The position numbers were made by a program, and so were the translations under genes. From a virus, in IMG/VR virus record IMGVR_UViG_3300027763_000027, positions 107,917-171,916 of that record: 64,000 nucleotides of DNA, one strand, 5' to 3'. The notes beneath the pieces were generated by a model. That model saw nothing but the letters and a program-made list of their open reading frames with translations, ran no database searches and was not told where the DNA came from. Shown in pieces: positions 16,389 to 59,125 of this stretch; positions within the stretch are counted from its first letter, which is position 1; the number at the start of each line of letters is the position of its first letter.

Positions 16389-16841
16389 ATGAAGCTAATT
16401 AATACCACCTCATATTGTTCTGAAAAGTTAAAAGAAATTATCAAATGGTGTATGCCAGAAGGCGTATTCCTTAAAGACATTAGAAAGATAGATTTTGGTA
16501 ATACTAAATTAAATTGGCATGGCAGGGCTTGGGGAAGCATGAGAGTGCATATTGGTGTGCCACGATACGGCAAGTATATTCGTCCTTATAATACAGGAGG
16601 CAGAAGAGGCTATTTAAGTGTTGAAACATATAGCTGGGAAGAAGGTTTAATTGAATTAATTGCTCATGAATTAAGACATATATATCAATGGAAAAAAGGT
16701 AAGTATTATCATGGTATTAAAAAGATAAGAAAATATAACATGGGTACACGAGCTAAATTATGTGAAGTAGATGCTAGTTTATATGCTAAGAGAAAAGTAA
16801 GAGAGTATAGAAAAAGTAATTTTAAATTAAATTTGGTTTGA
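16389..16841 (+). CDS. HExxH zinc metallopeptidase-like protein
   Basis: LIAHELRH plus downstream CEVDA. Confidence 0.6.
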   Translation: MKLINTTSYCSEKLKEIIKWCMPEGVFLKDIRKIDFGNTKLNWHGRAWGSMRVHIGVPRYGKYIRPYNTGGRRGYLSVETYSWEEGLIELIAHELRHIYQWKKGKYYHGIKKIRKYNMGTRAKLCEVDASLYAKRKVREYRKSNFKLNLV

Positions 16842-16842
16842 C

Positions 16843-16917
16843 ATAAGTAGTTGATTATTATATAGTTACGTGGGCGGGCTCCCCGCGCGCGCAAGTCGTT
16901 GATAGGTAAGCATTTAC
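16843..16917. repeat. 75-bp bipartite palindromic element, copy 1 (extra solo arm at 16949-16975)
   Basis: ATAAGTAGTTGATTATTATATAGTTAC + 21 bp + GCAAGTCGTTGATAGGTAAGCATTTAC. Confidence 0.85.
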
Positions 16918-17025
16918 ACAACAACAGTAAAAAACTTTAACAGGATTGGCAAGTGTCTGATAATCAGAATCTTATGATACGAAAAAAGTTCTTGTCATAG
17001 TTTAAAAGTGTGGTATGATTAACAT

Positions 17026-17883
17026 ATGGCTAGAACAACAAAACCCGCTCAAAGTGTATACGATTTCGATGTACACCAAGAGCCACTCCTCACAACAGAC
17101 GGCAAGAGGACAGGATACTTCGGGATGGTACGCCGTGATACCCCCGAACCCATGACGCTCGGAGTTTGCACCGAGCAGTATGGTGTGGTGAAGAATGCAG
17201 ACCTCGTAACGATGGTCGAAGAGTCGCTAGCGCAGAACAGTATGCTCGCCAATCACAACTCCAAAAAGTTTGTGGTTCGTGATGGATCCCGTTTCTATGC
17301 TAGCTATGACTTCCCTGAGTTCAAAACTCAGTTGAAGCCAGTTGGCAAACGTGCGGTTGGTGATGTGCTTGGTTTGAGATTGACTGTTAACAACAGTTAT
17401 GATCGCTCCAGTCGCGTTTCCCTCTCGCTTGGCTTCCTCCGTTTGGTTTGTTTGAACGGAATGAAGTCGTTGACCAAAGAGTTCAGCATGACGAAGAGAC
17501 ACACTCTCGCCGTGAATCTGGATTTTATTGGTGATGCATTGGCAAACGCACTCTCCAGTGTTGATACCTCTGTAGCAATCTTCAACAGGTTGGCGCAGAA
17601 GGCAATCACTGATGAGCAGGGTTTGACATTGCTCACTAAGCTGGAAGAGAAGGCTGTCATCTCTGCTAAGGTGCGCGAAGGCATCGAAGCAGTTTGGCGG
17701 AATCCTTCTTACGAGGAGGATCATGATCGCAACCTGTACAACTTGTACAACGCCACTACGCAGTTTTTAACTCGTAATGTCGCTGACGAGCGGTACGAGT
17801 ATAGCGAGAGGGTCAGCACCGACTTGCTCAAAGTCTTCAGCGGAAAAACCCGCGACGAAGAGCTCCTGAAGCTGGTCGCCTAA
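17026..17883 (+). CDS. DUF932-family protein
   Basis: Y.VVKNxDL, DGSRF, NSYDRS and RLVCLNGM motifs; NLYNLYNAxTQFLT C-terminus. Confidence 0.85.
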   Translation: MARTTKPAQSVYDFDVHQEPLLTTDGKRTGYFGMVRRDTPEPMTLGVCTEQYGVVKNADLVTMVEESLAQNSMLANHNSKKFVVRDGSRFYASYDFPEFKTQLKPVGKRAVGDVLGLRLTVNNSYDRSSRVSLSLGFLRLVCLNGMKSLTKEFSMTKRHTLAVNLDFIGDALANALSSVDTSVAIFNRLAQKAITDEQGLTLLTKLEEKAVISAKVREGIEAVWRNPSYEEDHDRNLYNLYNATTQFLTRNVADERYEYSERVSTDLLKVFSGKTRDEELLKLVA

Positions 17884-17902
17884 ACTAAAACGAAACTTTA
17901 AC

Positions 17903-17935
17903 AGAGGCGGAGGGCAAAACCCTCCGCTTCTTTTT
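17903..17935 (+). terminator. Intrinsic terminator
   Basis: GCGGAGGG-caaaa-CCCTCCGC followed by a T-tract. Confidence 0.85.
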
Positions 17936-17953
17936 GCTTTTTTATTGACATGC

Positions 17954-18028
17954 ATAAGTCGTTATCTATCAAGTATTTACAGCGCGAGGGACCCTGCGTT
18001 TGTAACTCGTTATCTATCAGAGGCTTAC
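17954..18028. repeat. 75-bp element, copy 2
   Basis: 27+21+27 geometry; core AGCGCGAGGGACCCTGCGTTT. Confidence 0.9.
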
Positions 18029-18067
18029 AACACTTGACATTTATATTATTTATGTTATAGTTATGAG

Positions 18068-18409
18068 ATGAAAGCAAAGCATAAAGTATATTATAACTTA
18101 CATAAGAAGTGTCTTTCTATTATGCTTCGTGGAAAAGTATTAGAGCATAGCACAGAATTTTTTTTGCGTGATGTTGAGTTTAGAGTGAGTCAAGCAGGGC
18201 GCTCCAGGGTTCTAAAGGAACAAAGAAAGAATGTACACGCCTTTGTATGTGGGACTCCAGATGATGGTTGGCCTATTGACCAAAATGAAAGAAAGGTAAC
18301 CTATAATCCTTATAAGTATAACAGCTTTGTTTATTCTGATACCTTTGAACCAGTATATAAAGCAAAATGGGTTGGAGTTATTAATAGAGATATTTTTGTC
18401 TTGAATTAA
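18068..18409 (+). CDS. Conserved phage hypothetical protein
   Basis: VYYNLHK...FRVSQAGRxRVLKEQRKNVHAFV...YNPYK pattern. Confidence 0.7.
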   Translation: MKAKHKVYYNLHKKCLSIMLRGKVLEHSTEFFLRDVEFRVSQAGRSRVLKEQRKNVHAFVCGTPDDGWPIDQNERKVTYNPYKYNSFVYSDTFEPVYKAKWVGVINRDIFVLN

Positions 18410-18576
18410 TCTAAAAGTATAGTAAGATTATCTAATGGAAATCACTAAAGCCAAGAAACTAAAGGAGGGCGGTTACGCACTATACGCAACTGACCCTAAA
18501 ACTAAAACCGAAACCCAAGTTGGATATATTGGAGAAGGTCTGACTTTGGAAGCGTGGCTTCCTAAAGGAGTAAAAA

Positions 18577-18963
18577 TTGAAAACTCTTGAAGAAACATTT
18601 ACTAGCAGAGGCTTTAAGTTCACGATGGTTGGTCGTGATGGCGATGTTGCTATCTATAAAAAGCGACTCGATGAACCAGACAGCGAAGCTTTTAACTATG
18701 AAGTGATTGCTATTAAGCGTCACAATGGATATGAGATTGCAGGTGTCAAGATGCCTCCTGCTGAAATGTATCCGTCCGATAGTCAATGGGGCGATTGGGC
18801 TTATACTTGTATTGATCGTGAAGATGCAGACAAGCGATTCGTTCAACTAAAAGAAAAACTATCAGCTTATGTTGCAACATCAACTTTAGCTAATGGTGAG
18901 AAGCGTGGTCGTGGCCGTCCTCGCAAAATTGATTTGACAAAAACAGAACTTGTGGTATCATAA
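18577..18963 (+). CDS. Hypothetical protein with C-terminal AT-hook
   Basis: KRGRGRPRK motif. Confidence 0.65.
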   Translation: MKTLEETFTSRGFKFTMVGRDGDVAIYKKRLDEPDSEAFNYEVIAIKRHNGYEIAGVKMPPAEMYPSDSQWGDWAYTCIDREDADKRFVQLKEKLSAYVATSTLANGEKRGRGRPRKIDLTKTELVVS

Positions 18964-18967
18964 CAAA

Positions 18968-19204
18968 ATGACATATAAATGTGCAGTAAGCGGTGAAGCA
19001 CTTTCACCAGAGAGAGTTGAGGCTCTGCAAGTCCTCGGCGTTCCAGAGAGTCAATGGACAAAGAAAGAACATAGTCAAACAAAAAAACTACGAGCTGTAT
19101 ATGCTGGTGACGATGGCAGTAATGACATTGTTATTTGTGATGCAGTAGATGGTGGCTCGATGTTTGATAACGCAGTAGCGTTGGAGGTAGAAAATGAATC
19201 TTAA
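18968..19204 (+). CDS. DksA/TraR-like small protein (degenerate)
   Basis: CxxSGExLSPERVEAL resembles DksA CxxCGExIxxERLEA; leaderless promoter upstream. Confidence 0.45.
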   Translation: MTYKCAVSGEALSPERVEALQVLGVPESQWTKKEHSQTKKLRAVYAGDDGSNDIVICDAVDGGSMFDNAVALEVENES

Positions 19205-19391
19205 GTATATCGTTTTGCGAGACGGAATTCGTGTGAGTGAAGATATGCACACGAAGATTGAAGATGCTGAACACGAAGCGGAGTTTTGGCGTAAAGTCAT
19301 TCGCTCGTGGCCTGATGGAACGAAAGTTACCATCAAGAAAATCGGCGGATAACTTCGGAGGCTGACATTGAGCTACGGCTTAGTGTTGATT

Positions 19392-19482
19392 GCTAGGGTC
19401 GTCTAACTGGTTAAGACCCCACACTTATAATGTGGTCGCTCTAGATTTGGGCAAAATGTAGGTTCGAATCCTACCCCTAGTA
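19392..19482 (+). tRNA. tRNA with UAU anticodon (Ile, AUA-reading) and long variable arm
   Basis: Acceptor GCTAGGG/CCCTAGT, D-arm GTCT/AGAC, anticodon stem CCACA/TGTGG with loop CTTATAA, about 22-nt variable region, T-arm GTAGG-TTCGAAT-CCTAC. Confidence 0.8.
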
Positions 19483-19767
19483 TGTATTATATGTAAGTAC
19501 TTAATGTTCAACCAATTATTTTTATTGACTATTTTTCTGATTCTTGTATATTAAACCTATGACAAACAAAACAGCACCATTCTATGTGATGAATGTGTTC
19601 GGTCAAGACCGAGCCGTTATCCTAAACACCTCAATCCGTATGTGTACGCCTAAAGAGACTTGTTCTCTTAAAGAATTGGAGAACATCTCCAAGGCTTTTG
19701 GAGTAGAGTTCTTTCAAGTACCAAAACCTTCTAGCTTCCCAGCGAAAGTAGTAGCTTCGTGAAAGAT

Positions 19768-19843
19768 GGGCTTGTAGCTCAATGGTTAGAGCAGAGCACT
19801 CATAATGCTTTGGTTGGGGGTTCAAGTCCCTCCGAGCCCACCA
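19768..19843 (+). tRNA. tRNA-Ile2(CAU), lysidine type (Met less likely)
   Basis: Cloverleaf GGGCTTGTAGCTCA...CTCATAA...TTCAAGT...ACCA with encoded CCA; Ile-like acceptor. Confidence 0.85.
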
Positions 19844-19970
19844 CTTCTCCTTGTGCGGATTGGATGCTCAACTCTTATAGTAAGCATGCTGAGATAACTC
19901 AAGAAGATGTAGAATGGTATTTAAAAAACAAAAGCATTGACAACAAACAAAGATAGGATAAACTAAAACT

Positions 19971-20357
19971 ATGAAACTTATTAAACAAAACCTCGGTGCC
20001 CATTGGGTCATCGGAATCAAAGGCAACAAGGACGAGATTGAGCAGTTCCACAATCGAGTCTATAACTGGGGCGGAACAAACGGAGAGCTTCAATGGATGA
20101 GCAACGATTTTGCTTATTTTTGGATTACTCTAGAAAAGTTGGAACGAGTAATGTTTAAGTATGTTATGAATGGCATCACAGATAAACTTGGTAAGAAGTT
20201 TCGTGGTGCAAAAGGTGGATTAAAAGGAGTCGTATCTAATCGTGTCAAGAATACTATTGATAATATTCCAAACGAAACATTTGTTCGCACAGCACAAGTC
20301 GAGGATATATATTCTCTTGGAACAATCTCTGCGGAAAAATTAGATACTGATAGCTAA
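19971..20357 (+). CDS. Hypothetical protein, paralog of 27766-28221
   Basis: Shares YNWxGTNG and YSLGTISAEK. Confidence 0.7.
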   Translation: MKLIKQNLGAHWVIGIKGNKDEIEQFHNRVYNWGGTNGELQWMSNDFAYFWITLEKLERVMFKYVMNGITDKLGKKFRGAKGGLKGVVSNRVKNTIDNIPNETFVRTAQVEDIYSLGTISAEKLDTDS

Positions 20358-20363
20358 ACAATC

Positions 20364-20436
20364 CGCCTAGTAGCCCAATGGCAGAGGCAAACGACTTAAA
20401 ATCGTTCAAGTGTCAGTTCGAGTCTGACCTAGGCGA
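20364..20436 (+). tRNA. tRNA-Leu(UAA) with short variable loop
   Basis: CGCCTAG/CTAGGCG acceptor, AACGA-CTTAAAA-TCGTT anticodon arm, GTCAG-TTCGAGT-CTGAC T-arm. Confidence 0.85.
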
Positions 20437-20445
20437 AAATCTTTT

Positions 20446-20519
20446 GCTTTCATAGCTCAATTGGATAGAGCAACGGATTTCTAATCCGTAGGTTGCAGGT
20501 TCAATCCCTGCTGAAAGCG
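20446..20519 (+). tRNA. tRNA-Arg(UCU)
   Basis: GCTTTCA/TGAAAGC acceptor, ACGGA-TTTCTAA-TCCGT anticodon arm. Confidence 0.9.
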
Positions 20520-20533
20520 TGTAATAATATATT

Positions 20534-21172
20534 ATGATAAGAATACATCCAGTATATTCTTTACGTTTATTAAGGCGTTTAAATGTTCCTATTAATACAA
20601 TTATAGATGTTGGCGTACAATATTCTACTCCATGTCTTAAAAATACTTTTCCAGATAAATTACATATTCTATTTGAGCCTGCTGCTAATTATTGGAATAA
20701 AATAGAAGAATCTTATAAAGATATAAAATATATTCTATATAAAATAGCTTTATTTAAAGAAGATAAAAAAGTTAATTTGAAAAAAAATGGAGAGCTTTAT
20801 AGAATCACAGATAATAATGAAATCGGGTTAATAGAAGTGCAAGCTAATAAACTAGACACAATACTTAAGGATACAAACTTCGAAAAGCCTTATCTTCTTA
20901 AACTAGATGTAGACGGAGCAGAACTTGAAATATTAGAAGGCGCACAAGAAACATTAAAAGATTGCTCTACAATATTCATAGAAGCTCACCCAAGAGATTA
21001 TTTAGAAAGATGTAATGCAATAGAAAAATATGGTTTTAAATTATTTGATATCGTAGACTTTCGTTATCATGATAATAGACTAGCTCAATTTGATTTGATA
21101 TTTATAAAAAAAGATCTTCTACCACATAAAAAACAAAAATTTGATATAACTAAATGGAAAGCGCTAAGATAG
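20534..21172 (+). CDS. FkbM-family methyltransferase
   Basis: IIDVG, FEP, LKLDVDGAELEILEGA and QFDLIF motifs. Confidence 0.85.
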   Translation: MIRIHPVYSLRLLRRLNVPINTIIDVGVQYSTPCLKNTFPDKLHILFEPAANYWNKIEESYKDIKYILYKIALFKEDKKVNLKKNGELYRITDNNEIGLIEVQANKLDTILKDTNFEKPYLLKLDVDGAELEILEGAQETLKDCSTIFIEAHPRDYLERCNAIEKYGFKLFDIVDFRYHDNRLAQFDLIFIKKDLLPHKKQKFDITKWKALR

Positions 21173-21463
21173 CGCACAATAGAAGGATTCATCAAAATAG
21201 TAATTACACATCTAAAATAACTTTTACCAAATATCTAACAGGATAATATAAATACTTGAAATATTTCCTAAATGCCTGTAATATAAGTTGATATGAAACA
21301 TCAAAATAGATTAAGTAAAATACTTGAAAAAAGAATCTTACAAGACGAAGATCCCAAAATGATAGATCAAATAGATAAATTCTTAAATAATCTAGAAGTT
21401 GTTTTTGTTAAATGGGCTAAAGCTCATCCCAATTGGAAAGAATCAGAAGAATAATTAATTACT

Positions 21464-21538
21464 GTAACTGGTTTAGCATAAAGTAGTTACAAAAGATCCC
21501 TCCCTGCCGTCGTAAGTCGTTGACCATCAACGAGATTT
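21464..21538. repeat. 75-bp element, copy 3
   Basis: 27+21+27; core AAAAGATCCCTCCCTGCCGTC. Confidence 0.85.
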
Positions 21539-21587
21539 AACTAAAGATTTTTCTTGTGAAAAAACAAAGCTGTGGTATATTTAAGTA

Positions 21588-21853
21588 TGAACAAAATCAA
21601 ATTAGCAATCATATACGCAACCTCATATCTGAAACACTTCGTCCTTTTCCTTTTTGGGCAAAGGTATTTAATCGAATACAAACCCTACGGCAAGAATGAT
21701 GTCTATACTTACATCATCGGCAAGCCTTCTTCTCATACCATCAGCAAGGCAGGGAACAAGCTATTCACTAGCTTCTGCTTTTCTGGTCGTATGGATTCTG
21801 GCGTGAAGCAATTTCGCTACGATAGAATTACTGGCGGTCTCTCACCAGTCTAA
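21588..21853 (+). CDS. Hypothetical protein (start MNKIKL)
   Basis: Behind TTGTGA...TATATT promoter; ends KQFRYDRI (WYL-like C-terminus, weak). Confidence 0.55.
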
Positions 21854-21909
21854 CAACAGAGAGATTAGAGGGTTTATTATTCTGTTCCCTCTATCCTTCA
21901 TATAGAAAG

Positions 21910-21937
21910 GGCGAGGCCTAAAAACCTCGCCTTTTTT
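21910..21937 (+). terminator. Intrinsic terminator
   Basis: GGCGAGG-loop-CCTCGCC followed by TTTTTT. Confidence 0.85.
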
Positions 21938-21970
21938 ATTGCACATAAACAAAGTTATGTTAAGATAGTT

Positions 21971-22188
21971 TTAGTTCTTCGATATCAGAGAAGGTTGACC
22001 GCAAGGTTGCAGTTCTGGAAAGTTTCTAATGGAAACATTAGTTATATATAACGGAATGCCAATACTTCTCGAGCGAGTCTGACTAACTCCATAAGAGGAT
22101 GAACCTGCCAACGCCCAGAGTCTGAGGCAAATTAAAAGAGCAGGGTATTTCCTTTACGAATCATGAGCGTAAAGGGTCGAAGAACTAA
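21971..22188 (+). ncRNA. Candidate ~218-nt multi-helix structured ncRNA
   Basis: Perfect 12-bp terminal helix TTAGTTCTTCGA/TCGAAGAACTAA, GCAA and GAAA tetraloop hairpins, own promoter TTGCAC-N16-TAAGAT, 3' T-tract. Confidence 0.75.
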
Positions 22189-22364
22189 TTTTTATTACGC
22201 CATTTTTCTCTATGATGGCAAACCCAATTTAACAGAGCTTTTTCAAAACCAATATCGTGTCCTGCTTTTTCGCTTTCGATCCATTTGTGTTTTAATATCT
22301 CTTCGCGTTCTTCCATAAACTTTTTATACAACGCAGAAGATTCAAGTAAACCAGATACCCTCAT
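22185..22364 (-). CDS. DUF4032-like small protein (59 aa, missed by ORF track)
   Basis: Manual translation ...EEREEILKHKWIESEKAGHDIGFEKALLNW...; GTGTAAT motif upstream on the minus strand. Confidence 0.7.
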   Translation of the reverse strand: MRVSGLLESSALYKKFMEEREEILKHKWIESEKAGHDIGFEKALLNWVCHHREKWRNKN

Positions 22365-22402
22365 AACTTATATTACACTATATTGATTTAAAATCAAATA
22401 TT

Positions 22403-22477
22403 TTATCTCTTTGATAGTTAAGCACTTACAACGCAAGAGTCCCTGTCTTTATAAGTTGTTGATAATGAGAGAGTTAT
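22403..22477. repeat. 75-bp element, copy 4
   Basis: 27+21+27; core AACGCAAGAGTCCCTGTCTTT. Confidence 0.85.
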
Positions 22478-22665
22478 TACTCTCCCATATCACGAGCATG
22501 GTCAGCATCAAGCTCTGCCTGAGTTTCTAAGGCTCGTTCCATAGCTTGATCGTCCCACATTTCTTTTGCCCAGATTTTTAGTGTTTTTTCGTCATCGAAT
22601 ATGTTCATCATATTTACCTCCTTTCTTTCTATAGATTATCATATTTTTGTTTTATGTCAACATTT

Positions 22666-22740
22666 TTATTCTGTTGATTATCAATGACTTGTGAAGGCAA
22701 CCTCCCTCGTGCTATAAGTTGTTGATGGTGAATGAGATTT
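22666..22740. repeat. 75-bp element, copy 5 (between divergent promoters)
   Basis: 27+21+27; core GAAGGCAACCTCCCTCGTGCT. Confidence 0.85.
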
Positions 22741-22779
22741 ATTAGTAGACAAAAAAACAATTTCTGATATATTTAAGCT

Positions 22780-23619
22780 ATGAAAGTAAATGAAATCATC
22801 ACCGAAAAATTCATCGAAGCCCTCAACAAAGGTGTCATCCCTTGGCAGAAACCTTGGAAAGTTTTTGATCTCTGCAATGGAGTTTCAAAAAAGAATTATA
22901 GGGGGATTAATCAATTTTTGCTACGGATGCTCGCTTCTGATGATTTCTTTTTTACATTCAATCAGATTAAGGAGCTAGGTGGGAGAATCAAAAAGGGTGC
23001 AAAGTCTCACATGGTAGTTTATTACAAATTGCTCAAAACTGAAAGCAACAATGAAACCAAAACTTTTCCAATGATGAGATTCTATAAAGTTTTTGGGTTG
23101 AGTGATATTGAGGGCATGAAGTGGAAACAGCCCGAAGTTAAGAAGTTGGATTTTTCACCAGTAGAAGAAGCAGAAAAGTTGATCAACAAGTGCATCATTC
23201 AGATTAAACATGGTGGCAGTCGTGCCTGTTATTATCCGCAGGAGCATAAAATTGATCTTCCTCCAAAAGAAAACTTCACCAGCGTTGAGGAGTATTATTC
23301 CACAGCGTTCCATGAGATTGGTCACGCTATGCACAAGGCTACAAGCGATGAAGTGAAGAATGGATTTGGTTCACAGAATTATAGCAAAGAAGAATTGACA
23401 GCAGAAATTTTTGCGAGTCTCTGCCTTAACTTCTGCGGAATTGATTCAGAAAAATGTTTCAACAATTCTGCGAGCTATCTTTCGAGCTGGCTTCAAGTAT
23501 TAAAGAAAGACATGAACTTTATTATTTCAGCTTCTAGCAAAGCACAAAAAAGATTTGACGCTTTTATTGGTAGAAAAGAAAGCGAAGAGATTCCACAAGA
23601 AGAAGCTGTAACTGCTTAA
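22780..23619 (+). CDS. ardC: ArdC-like antirestriction/ssDNA-binding protein (DUF1738 + zincin-like domain)
   Basis: IPWQKPW, YRGIN, TFNQIKELGGRIKKG, YYSTAFHEIGH, YSKEELTAE, SASYLSSWL motifs. Confidence 0.9.
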   Translation: MKVNEIITEKFIEALNKGVIPWQKPWKVFDLCNGVSKKNYRGINQFLLRMLASDDFFFTFNQIKELGGRIKKGAKSHMVVYYKLLKTESNNETKTFPMMRFYKVFGLSDIEGMKWKQPEVKKLDFSPVEEAEKLINKCIIQIKHGGSRACYYPQEHKIDLPPKENFTSVEEYYSTAFHEIGHAMHKATSDEVKNGFGSQNYSKEELTAEIFASLCLNFCGIDSEKCFNNSASYLSSWLQVLKKDMNFIISASSKAQKRFDAFIGRKESEEIPQEEAVTA

Positions 23620-23682
23620 GTATTAACTACTTACGCAAGCGGGGTCCCTGCCTTCGTAAGTCATTGATAGTCAATGAGATTT
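23608..23682. repeat. 75-bp element, copy 6 (left arm contains the ardC stop codon)
   Basis: 27+21+27; core GCAAGCGGGGTCCCTGCCTTC. Confidence 0.9.
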
Positions 23683-23731
23683 AACTGTAAAAAAAACTTG
23701 TCACAAGAAAAAAAAGTGTTAATCTAATTCT

Positions 23732-24367
23732 ATGTTCAAAAACAAAAAACAAGCCGAAGAGATTGTAGGTACACTCTCAAAACCCTCGAAGATGCCTGGA
23801 TATGCTTATTCAACGCCCGCAAAGCGTTGTCTTATCGGGCAGAAAATGCGGAATGTTGTAGGAAGCATTTGTGCTTTTTGCTATGCTCTTAAAGGGCGTT
23901 ATGTTTTTCCTAATGTTCAGAAAGCCATGGAAAAGCGTTTCGCTTCTCTTACTAACGATTTGTGGGTAGATGCTATGACATACTTAATCGGCAAAGTTAA
24001 GAATCCACATTTCAGGTGGCACGATTCAGGAGACTTGCAAGGTGTGTGGCATATTGAAAAGATCGTGAAGATTGCAAAGAATCTTCCTCACATTTCTTTT
24101 TGGCTTCCAACTCGTGAATATGCTTTCGTTTCAACTTATATCGAACAAGGTGGAGAAGTGCCTAGTAATCTTACCATCCGTTTGTCTGCTCTTATGATGG
24201 ATGGCCCCGCACCCGTAGGAATTGCACAACGCCTTGGCTTGTGTGTTAGTGGTGCAAGCAAGTTAGGAAACTTTAACTGCCCATCTTCCAAACAAGGCAA
24301 CAAGTGCGGTGATTGTCGCAAGTGTTGGGATAAAAATGAGTTTGCAATCGACTATAAAAAGCATTAA
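23732..24367 (+). CDS. Gp88-like Cys-rich phage protein
   Basis: LSKPSKMPG, C..CYALKGRY, FRWHDSGD, WLPTRE, CGDCRKCW. Confidence 0.75.
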   Translation: MFKNKKQAEEIVGTLSKPSKMPGYAYSTPAKRCLIGQKMRNVVGSICAFCYALKGRYVFPNVQKAMEKRFASLTNDLWVDAMTYLIGKVKNPHFRWHDSGDLQGVWHIEKIVKIAKNLPHISFWLPTREYAFVSTYIEQGGEVPSNLTIRLSALMMDGPAPVGIAQRLGLCVSGASKLGNFNCPSSKQGNKCGDCRKCWDKNEFAIDYKKH

Positions 24368-24600
24368 GATGTCTAGATGACATTATTTTTAATCTTATTT
24401 ACCTTATTTACCATCGTACTTATTAAAAAATCATATGAATAAAATCGAAAAATTACTAAACGAAAACCTAGAATCTTTTTATCCTTGGAACGATTCTGAT
24501 AATCCTCCACTCGACACAAACAAAAGCTTTGTGCAAAAGCAGAGAGAGATTGACGAAGTGTTTGAAGGTTGGCGAGCGAGTATGTAAAAAACTTGCTGGT

Positions 24601-24675
24601 GTAAGTCTTTGATTATCAAGGATTTACATCGGCAGAGACCCTGCGGTTGCAAGTCGTTGACTATCAATAACTTAG
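24601..24675. repeat. 75-bp element, copy 7 (at the strand convergence point)
   Basis: 27+21+27; core ATCGGCAGAGACCCTGCGGTT. Confidence 0.9.
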
Positions 24676-24769
24676 CGACGCTCTATAATTGATCTTATTA
24701 AAGCATAAATTAATTGCAAAAAAACCAATCCAAAGTATGCATAAACACAGATTAAAAAAGTTTGCATAA

Positions 24770-25033
24770 TTATTCTCCACAAAGATTTTCGTCACCAGCC
24801 CAACCGAAATCTTCCATCTGGAAGCACCCGCCATTGTAATCCTCGTCAGTGCCGTGGCCAGCAGAAGCCATAGCAGAGTCGAAGTCGCCATCCATAGAAT
24901 CGTCTGGCTCGTTAGAGGTTTCGGATTTGATAGCGCGATCATCCTCGCGCATTTCGTTAAGGATGTCGCGCACATCCTGCGAGCCCAACATATGTTGAGC
25001 CATCCATTCCTTGAGAGACGCTTTGTAGTCCAT
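24770..25033 (-). CDS. Small acidic hypothetical protein
   Basis: DDSMDGDFDSAMASAGHGTDEDY; GGAGG upstream. Confidence 0.65.
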   Translation of the reverse strand: MDYKASLKEWMAQHMLGSQDVRDILNEMREDDRAIKSETSNEPDDSMDGDFDSAMASAGHGTDEDYNGGCFQMEDFGWAGDENLCGE

Positions 25034-25328
25034 ATTATTTTACCTCCACAATAGTTTCGACCGAATCGTAAACCCCACTCAACGCATCGAGCATCGAGTT
25101 AACCACATCATTGGAATTGATGTAGTCAAAGAACGCATTTGCGTCCGCATAAACTTCCTCGCAGGTTTCCGTCGCTAGGGATGTGATTTGATTTGTCATA
25201 GATTAAATGTATCACAGATTTGATTTAGCGCAAGATTTATTTTGTGAAAAAGGAAATAGAAGAATATCTAATAGCAAATAGCCTCGATCTTTTGGCTTCA
25301 TTCAGTTTTTGTCGCAAGATCAGCATTC

Positions 25329-25403
25329 GTAAGTTGTTGATAGTCAAAGGTTTACGCGCGCCCCCTCCCTGCGCTCGTAAGTCGTTGATGCTTAGAGGCT
25401 TAC
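25329..25403. repeat. 75-bp element, copy 8
   Basis: 27+21+27; core GCGCGCCCCCTCCCTGCGCTC. Confidence 0.9.
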
Positions 25404-25537
25404 AAGAGGTCTCTGAGATTCAAACAACTCGCAGAAAGATAGTAGAAAAATCTTTCACGCAGAAAGTTTTTTGCATAACCATTTTTCACGGCAAGTCTAT
25501 AAGTTTTTTTATTTAGTTTGAAAAGGATTTTTTTCAT

Positions 25538-25801
25538 TTAGTCTCCTTTATATTTCGAGGATTCGTTGAAACTTCCTATGAAGTTCATCGTTCCATTTTT
25601 GCGTTCTTCGCATTGTTTGAGAAGTTCGGGAGTCATTTCGACTTCGGTCACTTCATCATAAAAAGCTAGGACACTTCCAACACCAGAGATTCTGGAAAGG
25701 CATTTTTTGTTAGAGGTTGAATTGAGCATTTCGCAGATTGCGATATGGTTTTCGATTTGGTAGTATTTTCCTACTACGAGGTTTTCTATTATGTTTTTCA
25801 T
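25538..25801 (-). CDS. Hypothetical protein (start MKNIIEN)
   Basis: Minus-strand TTGACA promoter ending just before ATG. Confidence 0.6.
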   Translation of the reverse strand: MKNIIENLVVGKYYQIENHIAICEMLNSTSNKKCLSRISGVGSVLAFYDEVTEVEMTPELLKQCEERKNGTMNFIGSFNESSKYKGD

Positions 25802-25865
25802 ATACTTATAATCTATCACACTTTCCTATTTTGTCAAACTTTTTTTCTCTTTGATTATTAACGAT

Positions 25866-26084
25866 TTAGCGATACCAGACAAGAGAATCTGTATCGACAT
25901 TATACAATCCGCTACGAAGATAAATGGTTGTCCATTTACCTTTGTCCTCACCTTCGAGGATTTCAGCAGTTGCAGTCATAGTTTTCCAACCGATTGTAGA
26001 AGGGAAAACCTTTACGAGTAGTCTTTCGTGACCATATCGAAAAGTATTTTCATCTGTAGTTAGTTCTTTATTTATTGTTATCAT
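25866..26084 (-). CDS. Hypothetical protein, paralog of 26638-26913
   Basis: LVKV...TA...LEGxDKxK..TI shared; near-identical leader. Confidence 0.6.
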   Translation of the reverse strand: MITINKELTTDENTFRYGHERLLVKVFPSTIGWKTMTATAEILEGEDKGKWTTIYLRSGLYNVDTDSLVWYR

Positions 26085-26171
26085 TTTATTTTTTCTTTCT
26101 TTGTTATTTCTTATCTTGTTATAAGTATAGTTTAGCATATTTCAGAGAAAACGCAACAAAAATCTTCATTT

Positions 26172-26246
26172 AAATTTCATTGATCATCAACGAGTTACAA
26201 CGCAAGGGCCCCTGCGTCTGTAAGTCATTGTCTTCTAACAACTTAC
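26172..26246. repeat. 75-bp element, copy 9
   Basis: 27+21+27; core AACGCAAGGGCCCCTGCGTCT. Confidence 0.9.
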
Positions 26247-26260
26247 ATCAGCTAATTTTG

Positions 26261-26458
26261 TCAAACACCAAACTTGTTACGATATTGATTATATAGGTTT
26301 TGATATTCTTCGCCCCATTCTGATTCACCAGCTTGGGCGATAGCTTCTTCTATCTCTTCGAGTTGTTTTTGACCCCTACGATAGTAGTATGAGTCTTCAC
26401 TCATTTGGTAAGTCCAATCGTGATTCTTTAAGAGTTCTTCGAATTGTTGAATGTTCAT
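26261..26458 (-). CDS. Small conserved phage hypothetical protein
   Basis: LLKNHDWTYQMSED..YYRRG pattern. Confidence 0.6.
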   Translation of the reverse strand: MNIQQFEELLKNHDWTYQMSEDSYYYRRGQKQLEEIEEAIAQAGESEWGEEYQNLYNQYRNKFGV

Positions 26459-26637
26459 TTATTTATTTTCCATTAAGTTTTGCCTTTAGTAAGGCGTGAG
26501 CTTTAGCCTTTTCAGGATTATTCTTTTTCCATTCAGACCATCGCTTTTTGCGATTAGCCCAAAGAGCTTGATTTTTTTCTTTACGTTGAATTTCCCATTC
26601 TTGGGAAGTTAGTTCTTTTTTATTATCTTTATTCATT

Positions 26638-26913
26638 TTATTTACTTTCTTTCTGTACTAGTGAAGCATTGTTAAGGTTGATAGTTCCAACCTTATCTTT
26701 ATCTTTACCTTCTAGGAAGGTTACAACTGCAGTATTTGCAGAAGTTTTGTAAGAAACTTTTACTAGAGTTCCTTCGTAAAGGTATATTTCACCAAAGTAA
26801 GTTGGTGTATTGTTAGAGTTAGTTATGATGGATTCATTACTATCCATATTTTTTCGCATATTTTCACGCATTTGTTTTCGTTGAAAATTCCAATTTATCA
26901 TTCTATGTGTCAT
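26638..26913 (-). CDS. Hypothetical protein, paralog of 25866-26084
   Basis: LVKVSYKTSANTAVVTFLEGKDKDKVGTINL. Confidence 0.6.
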   Translation of the reverse strand: MTHRMINWNFQRKQMRENMRKNMDSNESIITNSNNTPTYFGEIYLYEGTLVKVSYKTSANTAVVTFLEGKDKDKVGTINLNNASLVQKESK

Positions 26914-27312
26914 TTTATTTTTTTCTTTCTTTGTTATTTGTTATCTTTTATCTTATGTATATAGTTTACCAGAAAATCCTCAAAAGTCAAATTATTTTTT
27001 TCATTTATTTTTCGTTGATTATTAAGCACTTAGGATTGAGTAAAAGATTCCTGCCATAAAAATTGCCCAAATTAGGATTGCTGTTGCGAAGATTCCTTCT
27101 TTGTTCATTTTTGTGTTTCCTCGTGAGCTACTTCGACTTTGTGTTCGTATTTTGCGAAACTTTCATCGAGTCTTTTTTGGGATTCTTCAACGGCTTTTTT
27201 GAGGTCAGCCGAGGCTTTGTCTAAATTTCCGAGGAGGATTTCTAATTTTGTTTTTCTTTTCATACCTATAATTTATCACATTTTAGAAATTTTGCAAGAT
27301 ATTTTTTCATTT

Positions 27313-27387
27313 AAATTTCATTGTCCATCAACGAGTTACAACGCAAGGGAGCGCCCCGTCCTAAGTCGTTGTTACTCAGCTACTTAC
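27313..27387. repeat. 75-bp element, copy 10 (right arm contains the SleB-like gene stop)
   Basis: 27+21+27; core AACGCAAGGGAGCGCCCCGTC. Confidence 0.9.
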
Positions 27388-27761
27388 AACTTATAGAACT
27401 TGTGGTTGCGTATTGTAGCCACTAGCCTTGCGTCCCTAGCCCACCTAGGAGCGACGCTGATAGCGTGGTAATGGTTTGCACCCTTTACAATGTCTGGCAT
27501 CTGTTTATGGATGACTAGGTCAGCAAGGTATAGAGCGTTCTTACCTTGTGCCGTTGCTAGTAGTTTCTTCTTTGTTGCCTCACTTACTCCACCATTCCAG
27601 AAGCTGAATTGTTTGGGTGATAAGCATACTTGTTTAGCTGATTGCTTACGCTCTACCATTCGTGTTTGTATGACGCTAGCAACGCCCGCCATTCCTTCGA
27701 ATGTCTCGCCCCTAGCTTCGCCTAGGAGCGTAAGTGCTACGATGAATAGTTCTGCTGTCAT
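27384..27761 (-). CDS. SleB/Hydrolase_2 cell-wall hydrolase
   Basis: LTLLGEARGE...VASVIxxR...KQFSFWN...GANHYHA...PRWA...HKFY. Confidence 0.9.
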   Translation of the reverse strand: MTAELFIVALTLLGEARGETFEGMAGVASVIQTRMVERKQSAKQVCLSPKQFSFWNGGVSEATKKKLLATAQGKNALYLADLVIHKQMPDIVKGANHYHAISVAPRWARDARLVATIRNHKFYKL

Positions 27762-27765
27762 AGGA

Positions 27766-28221
27766 TTAATCCCTTCCGTTACTTACTGCACCGCAGTAAT
27801 CGCTAGGTTTCTCTGCACTGATAGTGCCGAGGCTATACCCCTCGGAGCTACTCGCACCCCAAAGGAAGCAGGTCTGCACCATATCATCTATAATGCTCTG
27901 TGCCTTGTCTGTTGCGAGATCAAGGAGTCCACCTTTTCGACCCTTTGCGTTAATCTTGTTCACGAATGCGTGAAGGGCAACCTTAACAAGAGCCTTCTTC
28001 ACATCATCTGGATGAGCGTAGAAGTAAAACGCTTTGCCGTTGCCCATATCGTGCAACTTGCCGTTAGTTCCTTCCCAATTATAGATGCTATTGAAGAAGT
28101 GATTGATTTGTTTGATACTTCCTTCGAGAAGGTAAGCATTGTTTTCGCCGAAGGTTTGGTAACTGATTTTGAGGTTTTGTTTCATAGGTTCTATATTGCC
28201 TTTCTGGATTGGTTTCGTCAA
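27766..28221 (-). CDS. Hypothetical protein, paralog of 19971-20357
   Basis: YNWEGTNG and YSLGTISAEK shared. Confidence 0.7.
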   Translation of the reverse strand: MTKPIQKGNIEPMKQNLKISYQTFGENNAYLLEGSIKQINHFFNSIYNWEGTNGKLHDMGNGKAFYFYAHPDDVKKALVKVALHAFVNKINAKGRKGGLLDLATDKAQSIIDDMVQTCFLWGASSSEGYSLGTISAEKPSDYCGAVSNGRD

Positions 28222-28449
28222 GTAATTTATTCGATGATATGAGAGATATTCGTTACAGCGAGAAACGCTTGTTTCTCCTTCTGTAACTTCTCGTATTCGC
28301 TGGCTACTTTGCCAAGTTGGATTACTGCTTGGTTATGGTTGCTCATAGCTTTATCTAGGTTAGCTAGGAGTCTTTCGAACTTATTCATTTTTTTCTTCAT
28401 ACCTTTAATCTATCACAGAATAGGAATATCACAAGATATTTCTTCAGTT

Positions 28450-28476
28450 AAATTTCATTGAATATCAACGACTTAC
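28450..28476. repeat. Solo 27-bp arm closing the island (other solo arms near 19493, 25843, 27007)
   Basis: AAATTTCATTGAATATCAACGACTTAC. Confidence 0.75.
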
Positions 28477-28987
28477 ATATGGCGTACCCCCATTAATTAA
28501 ATCAGACACAAGAAAGACACCCCCATTTTTGAAAAATTATAAGCGAGAGCGTTTGGAATAGCGTCGTGGGGGTATAAAAATCATTCTCCCCATACTAATA
28601 AAAGTATTCTTCTATATAGGTATACCCTACCCTTTTTTTAAAATCTATTTAAATTCAAGCTTAGAGTATATCTTTACAAGGCAAAAAAATCATCGGGGCT
28701 ATTTATTCTTATAACTCTTTTTGTATATATAAAAATCCTATACTATAGTGTAATAACAATTACTATGAAAATTAATTTAAAAACAATATTATTAACAGTT
28801 ATGCTAGGTAGTTTATACTACTTCTTATCTCACAATAAAAACAATAAAACAGAAATCAAAATCAAACAAAAAGAACAAATAACAATTATTGATAAAAAAC
28901 CTTCAAAATTACCCGCGCCCAAGGTTTATATTTCTTGTGCGCCCCAGAATAGACTAGGGGTAACAAATAACTGGAGGAGCAGATAAT

Positions 28988-52458: not shown

Positions 52459-52459
52459 T

Positions 52460-53137
52460 ATGGCTTATTTAAATAACAAATTAAATTCTGCAAATTATGT
52501 TACAGTAAAAGTAACGGACGATGCAATTATTAATGGGGATAATTTACTTTTAACTTATTCTTACGCTAAAATTTCAACACCAAACAACAGTGCATTATCT
52601 TCTTCTAATAGACTAGCTATTATTCTGCCCCCAGCGATTTATGATCTGAACAATAGCTTATTTCCATTTTTATATTTAGATACTCAATATGTAGATATTA
52701 TAGGTAGCACAAATGATAAATCTAAGCATCATATTAAAAGTAACTTTGCGGAACCTTATTATGGTACTTTAATACAAGAAGCAAATGACGTTAAATTAAT
52801 TAATCTAACTGTAGAAAATACAAATACGACGTATCAATTAGTTGGTGATACAGCAGATATATCGAGCTATTCTCCTAACGATAATTTGAATCTAACATAT
52901 ATAGAAAATGTAGAATTTAAATCAGATATAAATCATTGTTACCCCATGAGAACTTTTGGTTATTATGATGGCACATATATAAATGTCACAGCAGGAGATT
53001 TTTCATTTGGGTACAAAGGTGGAGCAAATGGAGTTTTTGAAAATTGTAAAGGTGGAAGTTTTTCATTTGGCACGCTTGGCGAAGCAAATGGAGTTTTTAA
53101 AAATTGTCATGGAGGGGATAGATCTTTTAATTTATAA
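52460..53137 (+). CDS. Putative virion/fibre-associated protein
   Basis: C-terminal GxFxNCxGGxxSF repeats. Confidence 0.55.
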   Translation: MAYLNNKLNSANYVTVKVTDDAIINGDNLLLTYSYAKISTPNNSALSSSNRLAIILPPAIYDLNNSLFPFLYLDTQYVDIIGSTNDKSKHHIKSNFAEPYYGTLIQEANDVKLINLTVENTNTTYQLVGDTADISSYSPNDNLNLTYIENVEFKSDINHCYPMRTFGYYDGTYINVTAGDFSFGYKGGANGVFENCKGGSFSFGTLGEANGVFKNCHGGDRSFNL

Positions 53138-53169
53138 TAATAAATTATAGTGTAATATATAAAAATACA

Positions 53170-57564: not shown

Positions 57565-57798
57565 GCTACAACCGAGGCACCAACGACTGGCGCGATAAAT
57601 CCTCCAATTGATATTAATTTTGGAGATCAAGTTCAATTGGCTCTTAAAGTACCAAGTTATGCGACTGGCATGAGTGGGGTTATAAATTCAGTAGATGTTA
57701 CTTTCTTTTATTAATAGATTAGTATTAAAAATTATATTATAAATAATATTATATATTGAATGTTTTTCACATTATAATGTGTAATCTATTATGAAATT

Positions 57799-58080
57799 AT
57801 GCTATCTCATATATTTGGCCCCAATTGGAGATCCAGTATATCTGGAATATTAACTGTTGTAGCTGTATCTACTGCTATGTCGATACACATGGATCCATCA
57901 CTAGTATCTTTTTTACCAAATCACATAGAAAATTATATTGTAGCAATTTCAAGAATTGTAGCTGTTGTTAGCGGAATAATTTTTTCGCTCACAGTAAAAG
58001 ATGCAAAAGTCACAGGAGGCACAGTAGCTTCCACGACTGAAGCAGAAGAAAGAATACATCCACATGGAGATAATATATGA
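57799..58080 (+). CDS. Holin-like membrane protein
   Basis: Two TM segments; NWRSS..G and KDAKVTGG pattern. Confidence 0.55.
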   Translation: MLSHIFGPNWRSSISGILTVVAVSTAMSIHMDPSLVSFLPNHIENYIVAISRIVAVVSGIIFSLTVKDAKVTGGTVASTTEAEERIHPHGDNI

Positions 58081-58526: not shown

Positions 58527-58528
58527 TC

Positions 58529-59111: not shown

Positions 59112-59125
59112 TTTTAATTTAGTAT

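What the first reader, a model, noticed from the sequence alone, without database searches (positions are those of the whole stretch)
21939..22195. Independently transcribed ~218-nt highly structured RNA of unrecognised family
Seen: after a terminator, TTGCAC-N16-TAAGAT places +1 at about 21971-21973, where a perfect 12-bp helix TTAGTTCTTCGA/TCGAAGAACTAA begins, and a T-tract follows the 3' strand. Internal stems: GAGAAG/CTTCTC, ACC-GCAA-GGT, GTTCTG/CGGAAT, CTAATG-GAAA-CATTAG, GAGT/ACTC, CCTGC/GCAGG enclosing GCC/GGC, and CCTTTACG/CGTAAAGG. GAGTCTGA occurs twice and could pair with the 5' TCAGA (possible pseudoknot). Two GNRA tetraloops fix the + strand. I do not recognise it as tRNA, tmRNA, RNase P or SRP; there is only a loose CCUGC...GCAGG resemblance to raiA-motif RNA. 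Inference: a phage ncRNA or ribozyme-like RNA expressed early.
Basis: partly seen in the sequence, partly recalled or inferred. Interest (0 to 1): 0.75.

Follow-up and report, generated by a model that had tools for sequence, protein, structure and literature searches.

The report
Self-pairing small RNA of lake phages
This is a real, separately transcribed 218-base folded RNA gene of an uncultured freshwater phage, a member of an apparently undescribed RNA family that sits among phage tRNA genes and carries a loop that always stays complementary to itself, so the RNA probably pairs with copies of itself.

Summary
Window 21971-22188 (+) encodes a 218-nt structured RNA. It has its own sigma-70-type extended -10 promoter (21939-21966). 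It ends in a 12-bp closing helix followed by a T-tract.

It is the long form of a family. I collected about 170 copies (92 distinct) from lake and river viral contigs and metagenomes. I found none in 185,579 bacterial or archaeal species genomes, and none in GenBank phages.

The shared 130-nt core is a four-way junction (P1, P2, P3, P5). Covariation supports it strongly: 93.5% of cells are paired against 45-54% in slid controls, and 24 of 36 pairs show compensatory changes. The window's form adds an 83-nt three-way domain with two loops that stay GNRA.

No Rfam 15 family matches, even at E up to 10. Phage T4 rnaC and rnaD do not match either.

In all 91 RNAs analysed, the P5 apical loop holds a hexamer complementary to itself (UCUAGA, UCAUGA, UCCGGA, GUCGAC, GUGCAC, UCUAGG). 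The hexamer changes by paired substitutions between otherwise identical RNAs. This points to loop-loop homodimerisation.

The gene lies in tRNA islands, on the same strand as the tRNAs. Metatranscriptome contigs from three studies cover it. Its function is unknown, and a ribozyme role is untested.

This scan found the same family earlier on other DNA (e1-5338812).

The parts
21910..21937 (+). Intrinsic terminator of the upstream gene (GGCGAGG-loop-CCTCGCC, then T6). It precedes the RNA promoter in many related loci.
   Evidence: Sequence. The hairpin was flagged. The module occurs once in the window. The same hairpin plus promoter is seen upstream in many homologous loci.
21939..21966 (+). Sigma-70-type promoter: -35 TTGCAC (21939-21944), 16-nt spacer with extended -10 TG (21958-21959), -10 TAAGAT (21961-21966). 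The predicted start is about 21972-21974.
   Evidence: Sequence. A TTGNNN-N16/17-TANNAT or CATAAT promoter sits in the same register, 4-5 nt before the RNA, in 76 of 86 distinct upstream contexts.
21971..22188 (+). The RNA gene, long form, 218 nt. It occurs once in the 171.9-kb phage record.
   Evidence: Folds. Covariance model built from short forms only: 62.9 bits, E 3e-13. Single copy in the phage's own genome.
21971..21982 (+). P1 5' arm. It pairs with 22177-22188 in a 12-bp closing helix.
   Evidence: Across the family, P1 covaries (TTCGA/TCGAA against TTCCGC/GCGGAA; GC to AU and GC to CG changes, helices 1-2).
21983..21986 (+). P2 5' strand UAUC. It pairs with GAUG at 22098-22101, and the first pair is G-U. 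It is placed by homology with the short-form P2.
   Evidence: Short-form P2 covaries strongly (CAAGG/CCUUG, CAAUG/CAUUG, CAGUAC/GUACUG, CAAGCG/CGCUUG): 99.2% paired. In long forms it is invariant, so the assignment rests on position alone.
21988..22070 (+). Domain specific to the long form: a three-way junction (GAGAAGGUUG/CAAUACUUCUC) bearing ACC-GCAA-GGU and a long arm that ends in CUAAUG-GAAA-CAUUAG.
   Evidence: Consensus fold of 17 long forms. The apical hairpin covaries (CG to UA, UA to CG, GC to AU). Both tetraloops remain GNRA in all variants.
22075..22089 (+). P2a hairpin GAGU-CUGACUA-ACUC. GACU in its loop (22081-22084) is invariant across the family.
   Evidence: The stem covaries (GAGGA/UCCUC, GGAG/CUCC, GAGAU/AUCUC, AAGG/CCUU, GUGGU/ACCAC). 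GACU is invariant in A1.
22104..22144 (+). P3 (CCUGC 22104-22108 / GCAGG 22140-22144), enclosing P4 (GCC 22113-22115 / GGC 22126-22128) with the conserved loop CAGAGUCUGA (22116-22125). In that loop only the eighth base varies across the family (U, A or C).
   Evidence: The core GCCCAGAGUCNGAGGC is present in every member. It was also present when the search pattern did not require it. The pair that closes P4 covaries UA/CG.
22151..22175 (+). P5 hairpin CCUUUACG-AAUCAUGAG-CGUAAAGG. The self-complementary hexamer UCAUGA is at 22161-22166 in the apical loop.
   Evidence: The P5 stem covaries at all 8 pairs. A self-complementary hexamer is present in 91 of 91 distinct RNAs. Its predicted probability of being unpaired is 0.98 here.
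22177..22195 (+). P1 3' arm (22177-22188) and T-tract (22189-22195). Together they are the likely terminator or 3' end.
   Evidence: Sequence. A run of at least four T lies within 14 nt downstream in 61 of 95 contexts. In other loci a tRNA gene starts 5-10 nt after P1.

Best explanation
Window 21971-22188 (+) is the gene for a stable, non-coding, highly folded phage RNA.

Shown:
- It belongs to a conserved family of 130-218 nt found in uncultured freshwater phages.
- The core is a four-way junction (P1 closing helix, P2 with hairpin P2a, P3 with hairpin P4, and P5) supported by compensatory base changes.
- The window's copy is the long form. It carries an extra three-way domain with two GNRA loops, inserted inside P2.
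- The gene has its own host-type promoter in a fixed register.
- It lies in the phage tRNA island, on the tRNA strand.

Inferred:
- Host RNA polymerase transcribes it, probably early.
- The 3' end is set by P1 plus the U-tract. Where a tRNA follows within 5-10 nt, tRNA processing would set it instead.
- The 12-bp P1 helix protects both ends.
- The exposed self-complementary hexamer in the P5 apical loop (UCAUGA here) pairs with the same loop of a second molecule, giving a symmetric kissing-loop homodimer.
- The invariant GACU (P2a loop) and AGUC (P4 loop) are complementary. They could form a further contact within one molecule or between molecules, which would allow larger assemblies.

The biological role is unknown. 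By analogy with ROOL, GOLLD and manA, I expect an RNA-only assembly that serves the phage during infection, perhaps as a scaffold or a decoy linked to tRNA biology or defence.
For: - Fold stability: z = -3.98, and 0 of 200 shuffles fold as well.
- Family size: about 170 copies, 92 distinct, from pattern scans and neighbour-gene searches.
- Covariation on the structure-blind MAFFT alignment A1: 91.3% of cells paired against 45-52% when partners are slid, 20 pairs changed on both sides, and 0 of 500 shuffles reach the score.
- Covariation on the model-fitted alignment A2: 93.5% paired against 45-54%, with 24 of 36 pairs changed on both sides.
- A model built from short forms only finds the window copy at 62.9 bits. 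It finds one copy per genome or locus.
- GNRA loops are preserved as GNRA.
- Self-complementary P5 hexamer in 91 of 91 RNAs: UCUAGA 69, UCAUGA 10, GUCGAC 7, UCCGGA 2, GUGCAC 2, UCUAGG 1, the last self-pairing only with G-U. Its mean predicted unpaired probability is 0.87.
- Otherwise identical RNAs differ only by the central AU/UA swap: window against L151, and L185 against L167. No half-changed intermediate was seen.
- The promoter sits in a fixed register in 76 of 86 contexts.
- A tRNA lies within 1 kb in 67 of 125 contexts, and nearly always on the same strand.
- RNA-library contigs from three studies cover the RNA. X3 has a 214-nt contig at 21989-22202, the UCUAGA variant. X1 covers 21946-22227 and X2 covers 22045-22351.
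- ROOL and GOLLD are phage RNAs near tRNA islands that assemble through kissing loops, some of them symmetric (PMC12286853). manA RNAs under 200 nt form cages (bioRxiv 10.64898/2026.07.01.735769).
Against: - Dimerisation is inferred from sequence alone. No tool here models RNA-RNA complexes.
- A loop palindrome could instead be a binding site for a dimeric protein.
- Shuffled loops of the same composition hold a Watson-Crick palindrome of 6 nt or more 15% of the time. The argument therefore rests on the paired changes, and these come from related sequences with few independent events (at least three kinds of swap).
- GACU and AGUC never vary, so their pairing cannot be tested.
- The contigs laid are assemblies of RNA libraries that may contain DNA. 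They show neither strand nor ends. One of them (X1) begins upstream of the predicted start.
- All copies were gathered with patterns from the conserved core, so the family's real diversity is under-sampled.
- G-U cells (176) outnumber A-C cells (87) only about twofold. The strand call therefore leans on the GNRA loops, the promoter, the T-tract and the tRNA orientation.
Confidence: 0.6

Rival explanations
1. The RNA is a folded decoy, sponge or partner for a protein. It would bind a host or phage factor, for example a tRNA-directed defence nuclease, a tRNA-processing or modifying enzyme, or a dimeric RNA-binding protein. The palindromic loop and the invariant loops would then be protein-recognition sites, not RNA-RNA contacts.
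For: It lies in tRNA islands on the tRNA strand. Here it also sits in an early island with an ArdC-like anti-restriction gene, a DUF932 gene and a methyltransferase gene. The loops and junctions are invariant, as would be expected for a recognition surface.
Against: No protein gene accompanies the RNA across the two main phage lineages. The hexamer changes sequence while keeping self-complementarity, and one variant keeps it only through G-U. That pattern fits base pairing better than sequence-specific protein recognition. This reading does not exclude dimerisation.
Confidence: 0.2
2. The RNA is a self-cleaving or otherwise catalytic RNA of a new class, with the invariant junction and loop nucleotides forming an active site.
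For: It has a compact four-way junction with highly conserved unpaired nucleotides. An A-GUC sequence in the P4 loop and a GUAUAU junction recall the hairpin ribozyme. That resemblance is from my own memory only.
Against: No ribozyme family in Rfam matches, even at E up to 10. The RNA is a stand-alone promoter-to-terminator gene, not a repeat or a retroelement part. RNA-library contigs span it uninterrupted, though contigs cannot exclude cleavage.
Confidence: 0.06
3. It is a DNA-level element, not an RNA. It could be a miniature inverted-repeat mobile element (P1 as terminal inverted repeats), a recombination site or a replication site. The loop palindrome would be a restriction-type or protein-binding site.
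For: A perfect 12-bp inverted repeat bounds the element. It occurs at several different positions within tRNA islands. The reverse strand also folds well, z = -4.85.
Against: There is one copy per genome. The promoter sits in a fixed register upstream and a T-tract lies downstream. Many G-U pairs occur on the + strand, and GNRA loops exist only on the + strand. One palindrome variant is complementary only as RNA (UCUAGG). Internal helices covary, which a mobile element would have no need to keep. RNA libraries contain it.
Confidence: 0.04
4. It is a cis-acting leader, riboswitch or complex terminator that controls a neighbouring gene.
For: It sits between genes and ends in a helix plus U-tract that should terminate transcription.
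Against: The downstream neighbour differs between loci. It is a convergent minus-strand ORF here, a tRNA elsewhere, or a new promoter and unrelated genes. The RNA carries its own promoter immediately after a terminator.
Confidence: 0.03

Closest known systems
ROOL and GOLLD RNAs (large ornate RNAs of phages and prophages)
   Same: They are encoded by phages, often in or beside tRNA islands. Their function is unknown and no partner protein is known. They assemble with copies of themselves through kissing loops, including symmetric ones in which the same loop of two chains pairs (PMC12286853).
   Different: They are far larger (roughly 500-800 nt or more, against 130-218 nt). No sequence or structure match was found (no Rfam hit at E up to 10). 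Self-assembly of the present RNA is inferred, not shown.
manA RNA motif
   Same: It is a small RNA (under 200 nt) found in phages and aquatic bacteria. A 2026 cryo-EM preprint reports that it forms discrete RNA-only oligomers and cages (bioRxiv 10.64898/2026.07.01.735769).
   Different: The preprint describes manA as a putative cis-regulatory 5'-UTR element. The present RNA is a stand-alone gene. There is no Rfam match to manA, and the secondary structure differs.
Phage T4 stable RNAs rnaC (species 1) and rnaD (species 2)
   Same: They are small stable RNAs of unknown function encoded in a phage tRNA cluster on the tRNA strand (annotation of NC_000866). They are of similar size (139 and 119 nt).
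   Different: They are not homologous. The family model gives no hit on either RNA with filters off; its best score anywhere in the 5.5-kb locus is 10 bits, and that lies elsewhere. T4 rnaC carries a tRNA-like T-arm sequence, which the present RNA lacks. No palindromic loop is known for them.
HIV-1 dimerisation initiation site and phi29 packaging RNA (mechanistic analogues, from my own knowledge)
   Same: In both, RNA molecules join through loop-loop base pairing. The HIV-1 site is a six-base self-complementary apical loop that exists in alternative palindromic versions (GCGCGC, GUGCAC), the same kind of variation seen here.
   Different: The molecules and their biology are unrelated. phi29 pRNA uses two different complementary loops and belongs to the packaging motor, and it did not match (Rfam).

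Membership tests
Any Rfam 15 family (including raiA, manA, ROOL, GOLLD, phage pRNA, HEARO, and the hammerhead, hairpin, twister, twister-sister, pistol, hatchet and HDV-like ribozymes) | A covariance-model match at or near the family's gathering score | tested here: not met
   Gathering thresholds on the whole window gave only 4 tRNAs. With E up to 10 and permissive filters on 21965-22200 there were 0 matches. On 21800-22400 nothing fell on the RNA body. A short-form member gave only chance microRNA and snoRNA hits.
   No raiA hit at E up to 10.
tRNA, tmRNA | A cloverleaf or tmRNA architecture recognised by ARAGORN or the Rfam models | tested here: not met
   ARAGORN finds only the 4 tRNAs at 19391-20520. 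Rfam gives the same result.
Phage T4 rnaC / rnaD | Sequence and structure homology to the T4 species 1 or species 2 RNA | tested here: not met
   Model R1 with filters off on the T4 tRNA region gave a best score of 10 bits, and not on rnaC or rnaD.
Phage T4 rnaC / rnaD | A stable small RNA encoded in the phage tRNA cluster on the tRNA strand | tested here: met
   In the window the tRNAs lie 1.45-2.6 kb upstream on the same strand. Across the family a tRNA lies within 1 kb in 67 of 125 contexts. This is a resemblance of setting only.
Self-assembling phage RNAs (ROOL / GOLLD / manA kind) | Intermolecular contacts conserved in evolution (covarying or self-complementary loops) | tested here: met
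   A self-complementary P5 hexamer is present in 91 of 91 RNAs, in six versions that interchange by paired changes.
Self-assembling phage RNAs (ROOL / GOLLD / manA kind) | Formation of a defined RNA-only oligomer | not testable with these tools
   This needs native gels, SEC-MALS or cryo-EM of the transcript.
Self-cleaving ribozyme | Site-specific self-cleavage | not testable with these tools
   Only the absence of matches to known ribozyme models could be shown.

The most novel reading that the evidence does not exclude
The family is a compact (130-nt core) natural RNA that builds RNA-only dimers or larger closed assemblies. It would use two kinds of loop-loop contact: the symmetric P5 palindrome, and the GACU/AGUC pair. 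The interchangeable palindromes (UCUAGA, UCAUGA, UCCGGA, GUCGAC, GUGCAC) would act as an address, so that RNAs of one phage strain pair only with their own kind during mixed infection. The assembly would serve the phage's tRNA island, for example by protecting or mimicking tRNAs against host defence.
Probability: 0.2. Interest if true: 0.85.

Novelty: new variant of a known kind. Interest (0 to 1): 0.62.

Why it matters
Phage tRNA islands keep yielding folded RNAs of unknown purpose: T4 rnaC and rnaD, ROOL, GOLLD and manA. Recent cryo-EM work shows that several of these build RNA-only cages.

This family adds a small and sharply defined example:
- The core is only 130 nt.
- It has a clean four-way junction.
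- It has its own promoter and many natural variants.
- It has a loop whose self-complementarity is kept through paired mutations.

Its size and its natural set of alternative palindromes make loop-driven RNA self-assembly easy to test by mutation and structure determination. The long and short forms also offer a natural experiment on what the added domain does.

It may help to explain why phages pair such RNAs with their tRNA genes. The family may exist as an unnamed entry in a 2023 catalogue of about 8,500 candidate phage RNAs (PMC10690425), which I could not inspect.

Tried and rejected
- **GenBank phages.** blastn in distant mode with the window RNA, a short form and the 139-nt form gave no match. 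No cultured phage in that collection carries it.
- **Bacterial and archaeal genomes.** The 20-nt core pattern hit 15 records. All lie in G+C-rich coding sequence, 14 of them in one gene of Gemmatimonadota. These are chance matches, not the RNA.
- **Core-independent pattern** (TGAAGCCCCAAYGCC) in viral contigs. About 80 new loci came back and none is a family member. No variant of the AGUC loop was found, so the GACU/AGUC pairing could not be tested.
- **5' TCAGA pseudoknot.** Rejected; see the observation check.
- **Possible extension of P4** (CAG/CUG with an AGU triloop, proposed by RNAalifold). The variable base N breaks its A-U pair in the variants, so I left it out.
- **Kink-turn or tetraloop-receptor readings** of the P3/P4 internal loop and of CAUAAG...GUAUAU. 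I considered these by eye only and found no clear match.
- **Conserved protein partner.** Clustering ORFs within 3 kb in 35 contexts found none shared by both main lineages. The widest cluster is an artefact of frames read across tRNA genes.
- **Coding potential.** Only short ORFs overlap the RNA (46 aa on the minus strand, 51 aa on the plus strand). Homologs differ by 1-2-nt indels (table 4). Rejected.
- **Read laying.** Stretches of the 2.7-kb region without contig cover in some runs say nothing. Contigs give no strand, no ends and no expression level.
- **Supplements of PMC10690425.** They are not held, so I could not check whether the motif is in that catalogue.
- **Complex prediction.** Not used, because it is meant for proteins.
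- **PHROG searches of the structural genes.** These gave almost nothing beyond the large terminase. I could not place the phage type or its host.

Full report
**Setting.** The window is the last 64 kb of a 171.9-kb IMG/VR virus record that CheckV rates as complete. Its G+C content is about 30%. It holds a large terminase, very large virion proteins and an early-type island. That island carries four tRNA genes (19391-20520, + strand), an FkbM-type methyltransferase, a DUF932 protein, an ArdC-like anti-restriction protein and a GP88-like protein. Most structural genes match no PHROG, so I could place neither the phage lineage nor the host.

**The observation.**
- The predicted start is near 21972-21974.
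- The + strand folds to -65.4 kcal/mol, z = -3.98, and 0 of 200 shuffles fold as well.
- The reverse strand folds equally well, so energy alone does not fix the strand.

**Not a known family.**
- Rfam 15 at gathering thresholds finds only the tRNAs.
- With E up to 10 and permissive filters, nothing falls on the RNA. A short-form relative gives only chance hits.
- ARAGORN finds no tRNA or tmRNA there.

**Homologs.**
- The neighbouring ArdC-like gene brought in 27 related viral loci. About 20 of them carried a relative of the RNA, in a long version (about 218 nt) and a short version (about 130 nt).
- All share the core GCCCAGAGTCNGAGGC.
Of these, 92 are distinct after trimming to the closing helix.
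- By the records I saw, sources are lake, river and other freshwater samples. One record is from the Global Ocean Sampling set.
- In the genomes of 185,579 prokaryote species, the 20-nt core pattern hit only a G+C-rich coding gene, by chance.
- GenBank phages hold no relative.
- A search that did not constrain the P4 loop found no further members and no loop variants.

**Architecture.**
- The short form is a four-way junction.
  - P1 (11-13 bp, often with one bulged U) closes the molecule.
  - P2 (5-6 bp) encloses hairpin P2a, whose loop always contains GACU.
  - P3 encloses a conserved internal loop and hairpin P4. The P4 loop is CAGAGUCNGA.
  - P5 is an 8-9-bp hairpin.
- A 139-nt form has a longer P5. 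A 153-nt form has one more hairpin inside P2.
- The window's 218-nt form has an 83-nt three-way domain inserted inside P2.
- For the window RNA, the fold derived by homology scores -55 to -59 kcal/mol, against an MFE of -64.9.

**Covariation.**
- On the MAFFT alignment of 75 short-class RNAs (A1), my structure gives 91.3% paired cells, against 45-52% when the 3' partners are slid by 1-3 columns. It has 20 pairs with changes on both sides, and 0 of 500 shuffles reach the covariation score.
- On the model-fitted alignment of all 92 RNAs (A2), the figures are 93.5% against 45-54%, with 24 of 36 pairs changed on both sides. That alignment leans towards the structure by construction.
- P2 is the clearest helix: CAAGG/CCUUG, CAAUG/CAUUG, CAGUAC/GUACUG and CAAGCG/CGCUUG, with 99.2% of cells paired.
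- In the long-form domain the apical hairpin covaries. Both tetraloops vary yet remain GNRA: GCAA/GUAA/GAAA and GAAA/GCAA/GAGA.
- G-U cells outnumber A-C cells 176 to 87.
- The strand call rests on these points together with the promoter, the T-tract and the tRNA orientation.

**A stand-alone gene.**
- A covariance model built from short forms only (R1) finds the window copy at 62.9 bits.
- It finds exactly one copy in the whole phage genome and one per related locus.
- A sigma-70-type promoter sits in the same register in 76 of 86 distinct upstream contexts. It has TTGNNN, a 16-17-nt spacer, often an extended -10 TG, and a -10 element of the form TANNAT or CATAAT that ends 4-5 nt before the RNA. 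Most of the other contexts have a TTGACA promoter a few bases further away.
- Downstream neighbours differ between loci. Here it is a convergent ORF. Elsewhere it is a tRNA gene beginning 5-10 nt after P1, or a fresh promoter with unrelated genes.
- No protein gene travels with the RNA across the two main lineages.

**tRNA islands.**
- A tRNA gene lies within 1 kb of the RNA in 67 of 125 distinct contexts, and within 3 kb in 82. Many of the remaining contigs are short.
- With one distant exception, all tRNAs are on the RNA's strand.
- In the window the nearest tRNA ends 1.45 kb upstream.
- The setting recalls phage T4, whose rnaC and rnaD follow tRNA-Arg. R1 does not match them, and T4 rnaC has a tRNA-like T-arm that this RNA lacks.

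**The self-complementary loop.** I checked it on my own data.
- All 91 RNAs analysed carry a self-complementary hexamer in the P5 apical loop: UCUAGA (69), UCAUGA (10, including the window), GUCGAC (7), UCCGGA (2), GUGCAC (2) and UCUAGG (1, self-pairing only with G-U). Its mean predicted probability of being unpaired is 0.87, and 0.98 in the window RNA.
- The hexamer lies off the hairpin's own axis, so it cannot simply extend the stem.
- Window and L151 are identical over 218 nt except for the central AU to UA swap. L185 and L167 show the same swap on a second sequence background.
- GUCGAC and GUGCAC differ by the central CG to GC swap. UCCGGA differs from UCUAGA by UA to CG.
- No half-changed intermediate occurs.
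- Shuffled loops of the same composition hold a 6-nt palindrome 15% of the time. The weight of the argument therefore lies in the repeated paired changes.
- This is the signature of pairing between the same loop of two molecules, as in the symmetric kissing loops of OLE and GOLLD (PMC12286853).
- GACU (P2a loop) and AGUC (P4 loop) are complementary and invariant. They may form another contact, but no variation exists to test it.

**Expression.**
- Twelve freshwater, lake and river metatranscriptome runs from twelve studies hold small shares of the 2.7-kb stretch.
- I laid four of them. X3 has a 214-nt contig at 21989-22202 that differs only by the AU to UA palindrome swap. X1 has a 279-nt contig at 21946-22227, of the variant with A at the variable loop base. 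X2 has an identical 307-nt contig at 22045-22351.
- These are assemblies of RNA libraries that may contain DNA, and they give no strand or ends. They are consistent with expression but do not prove it.

**Interpretation.**
- The finding is a real phage non-coding RNA gene. It belongs to a family absent from Rfam 15, and I found no description of it in the literature I could search.
- A 2023 catalogue of about 8,500 unnamed candidate phage RNAs (PMC10690425) could include it. Its supplements were not available.
- The most likely mechanism is loop-loop homodimerisation, possibly extended to larger assemblies. This places the RNA beside ROOL, GOLLD and manA as a small new example of a self-associating phage RNA from a tRNA island.
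- Its biological role remains unknown.
- Protein-decoy, ribozyme, mobile-element and cis-regulatory readings are weighed under the rival explanations.
- This scan had already met the family on another genome (e1-5338812) and comparable RNAs elsewhere.

Noticed in passing
window 19391-19483: The tRNA-Ile(UAU) gene is 91-93 nt long and has an insertion of about 20 nt in the variable-arm region (cmscan alignment; ARAGORN). That is unusual for an isoleucine tRNA.
   Followed up: no
window 16800-28500: The RNA lies in an early-type island of small genes that includes DUF932 (17026-17883), an FkbM methyltransferase (20534-21172), an ArdC-like anti-restriction protein with a metallopeptidase domain (22780-23619) and a GP88-like protein (23732-24367). 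Another first-stage note (e1-5660596) reports ten spaced 75-bp double palindromes that partition this island, two of them at 22403 and 22666, just downstream of the RNA.
   Followed up: no
window 22185-22364 (-) and 21572-21853 (+): The two small ORFs that flank the RNA (59 aa, convergent; 93 aa, upstream) are conserved next to it in the window's own phage lineage but have no family assignment. The 59-aa product has a sub-threshold DUF4032 hit only.
   Followed up: partly
L006, L007, L025, L028, L154, L175, L190, L191 (RNA 3' end): In these relatives a tRNA gene (Lys, Pro or Tyr) begins only 5-10 nt after the RNA's closing helix. The RNA and the tRNA are probably made as one precursor and separated by tRNA processing.
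   Followed up: partly
L232-L246 (Gemmatimonadota genomes): A 20-nt string identical to the RNA core occurs in one highly conserved G+C-rich coding gene of 14 Gemmatimonadota/Longimicrobiales genomes. This is coincidence, not homology.
   Followed up: yes
window 46846-64000: Three very large genes lie here (1870 aa, 1464 aa, and more than 1625 aa running off the window). They have only faint matches to virion structural proteins. The portal-sized and capsid-sized genes upstream match no PHROG. The phage lineage looks poorly described.
   Followed up: no
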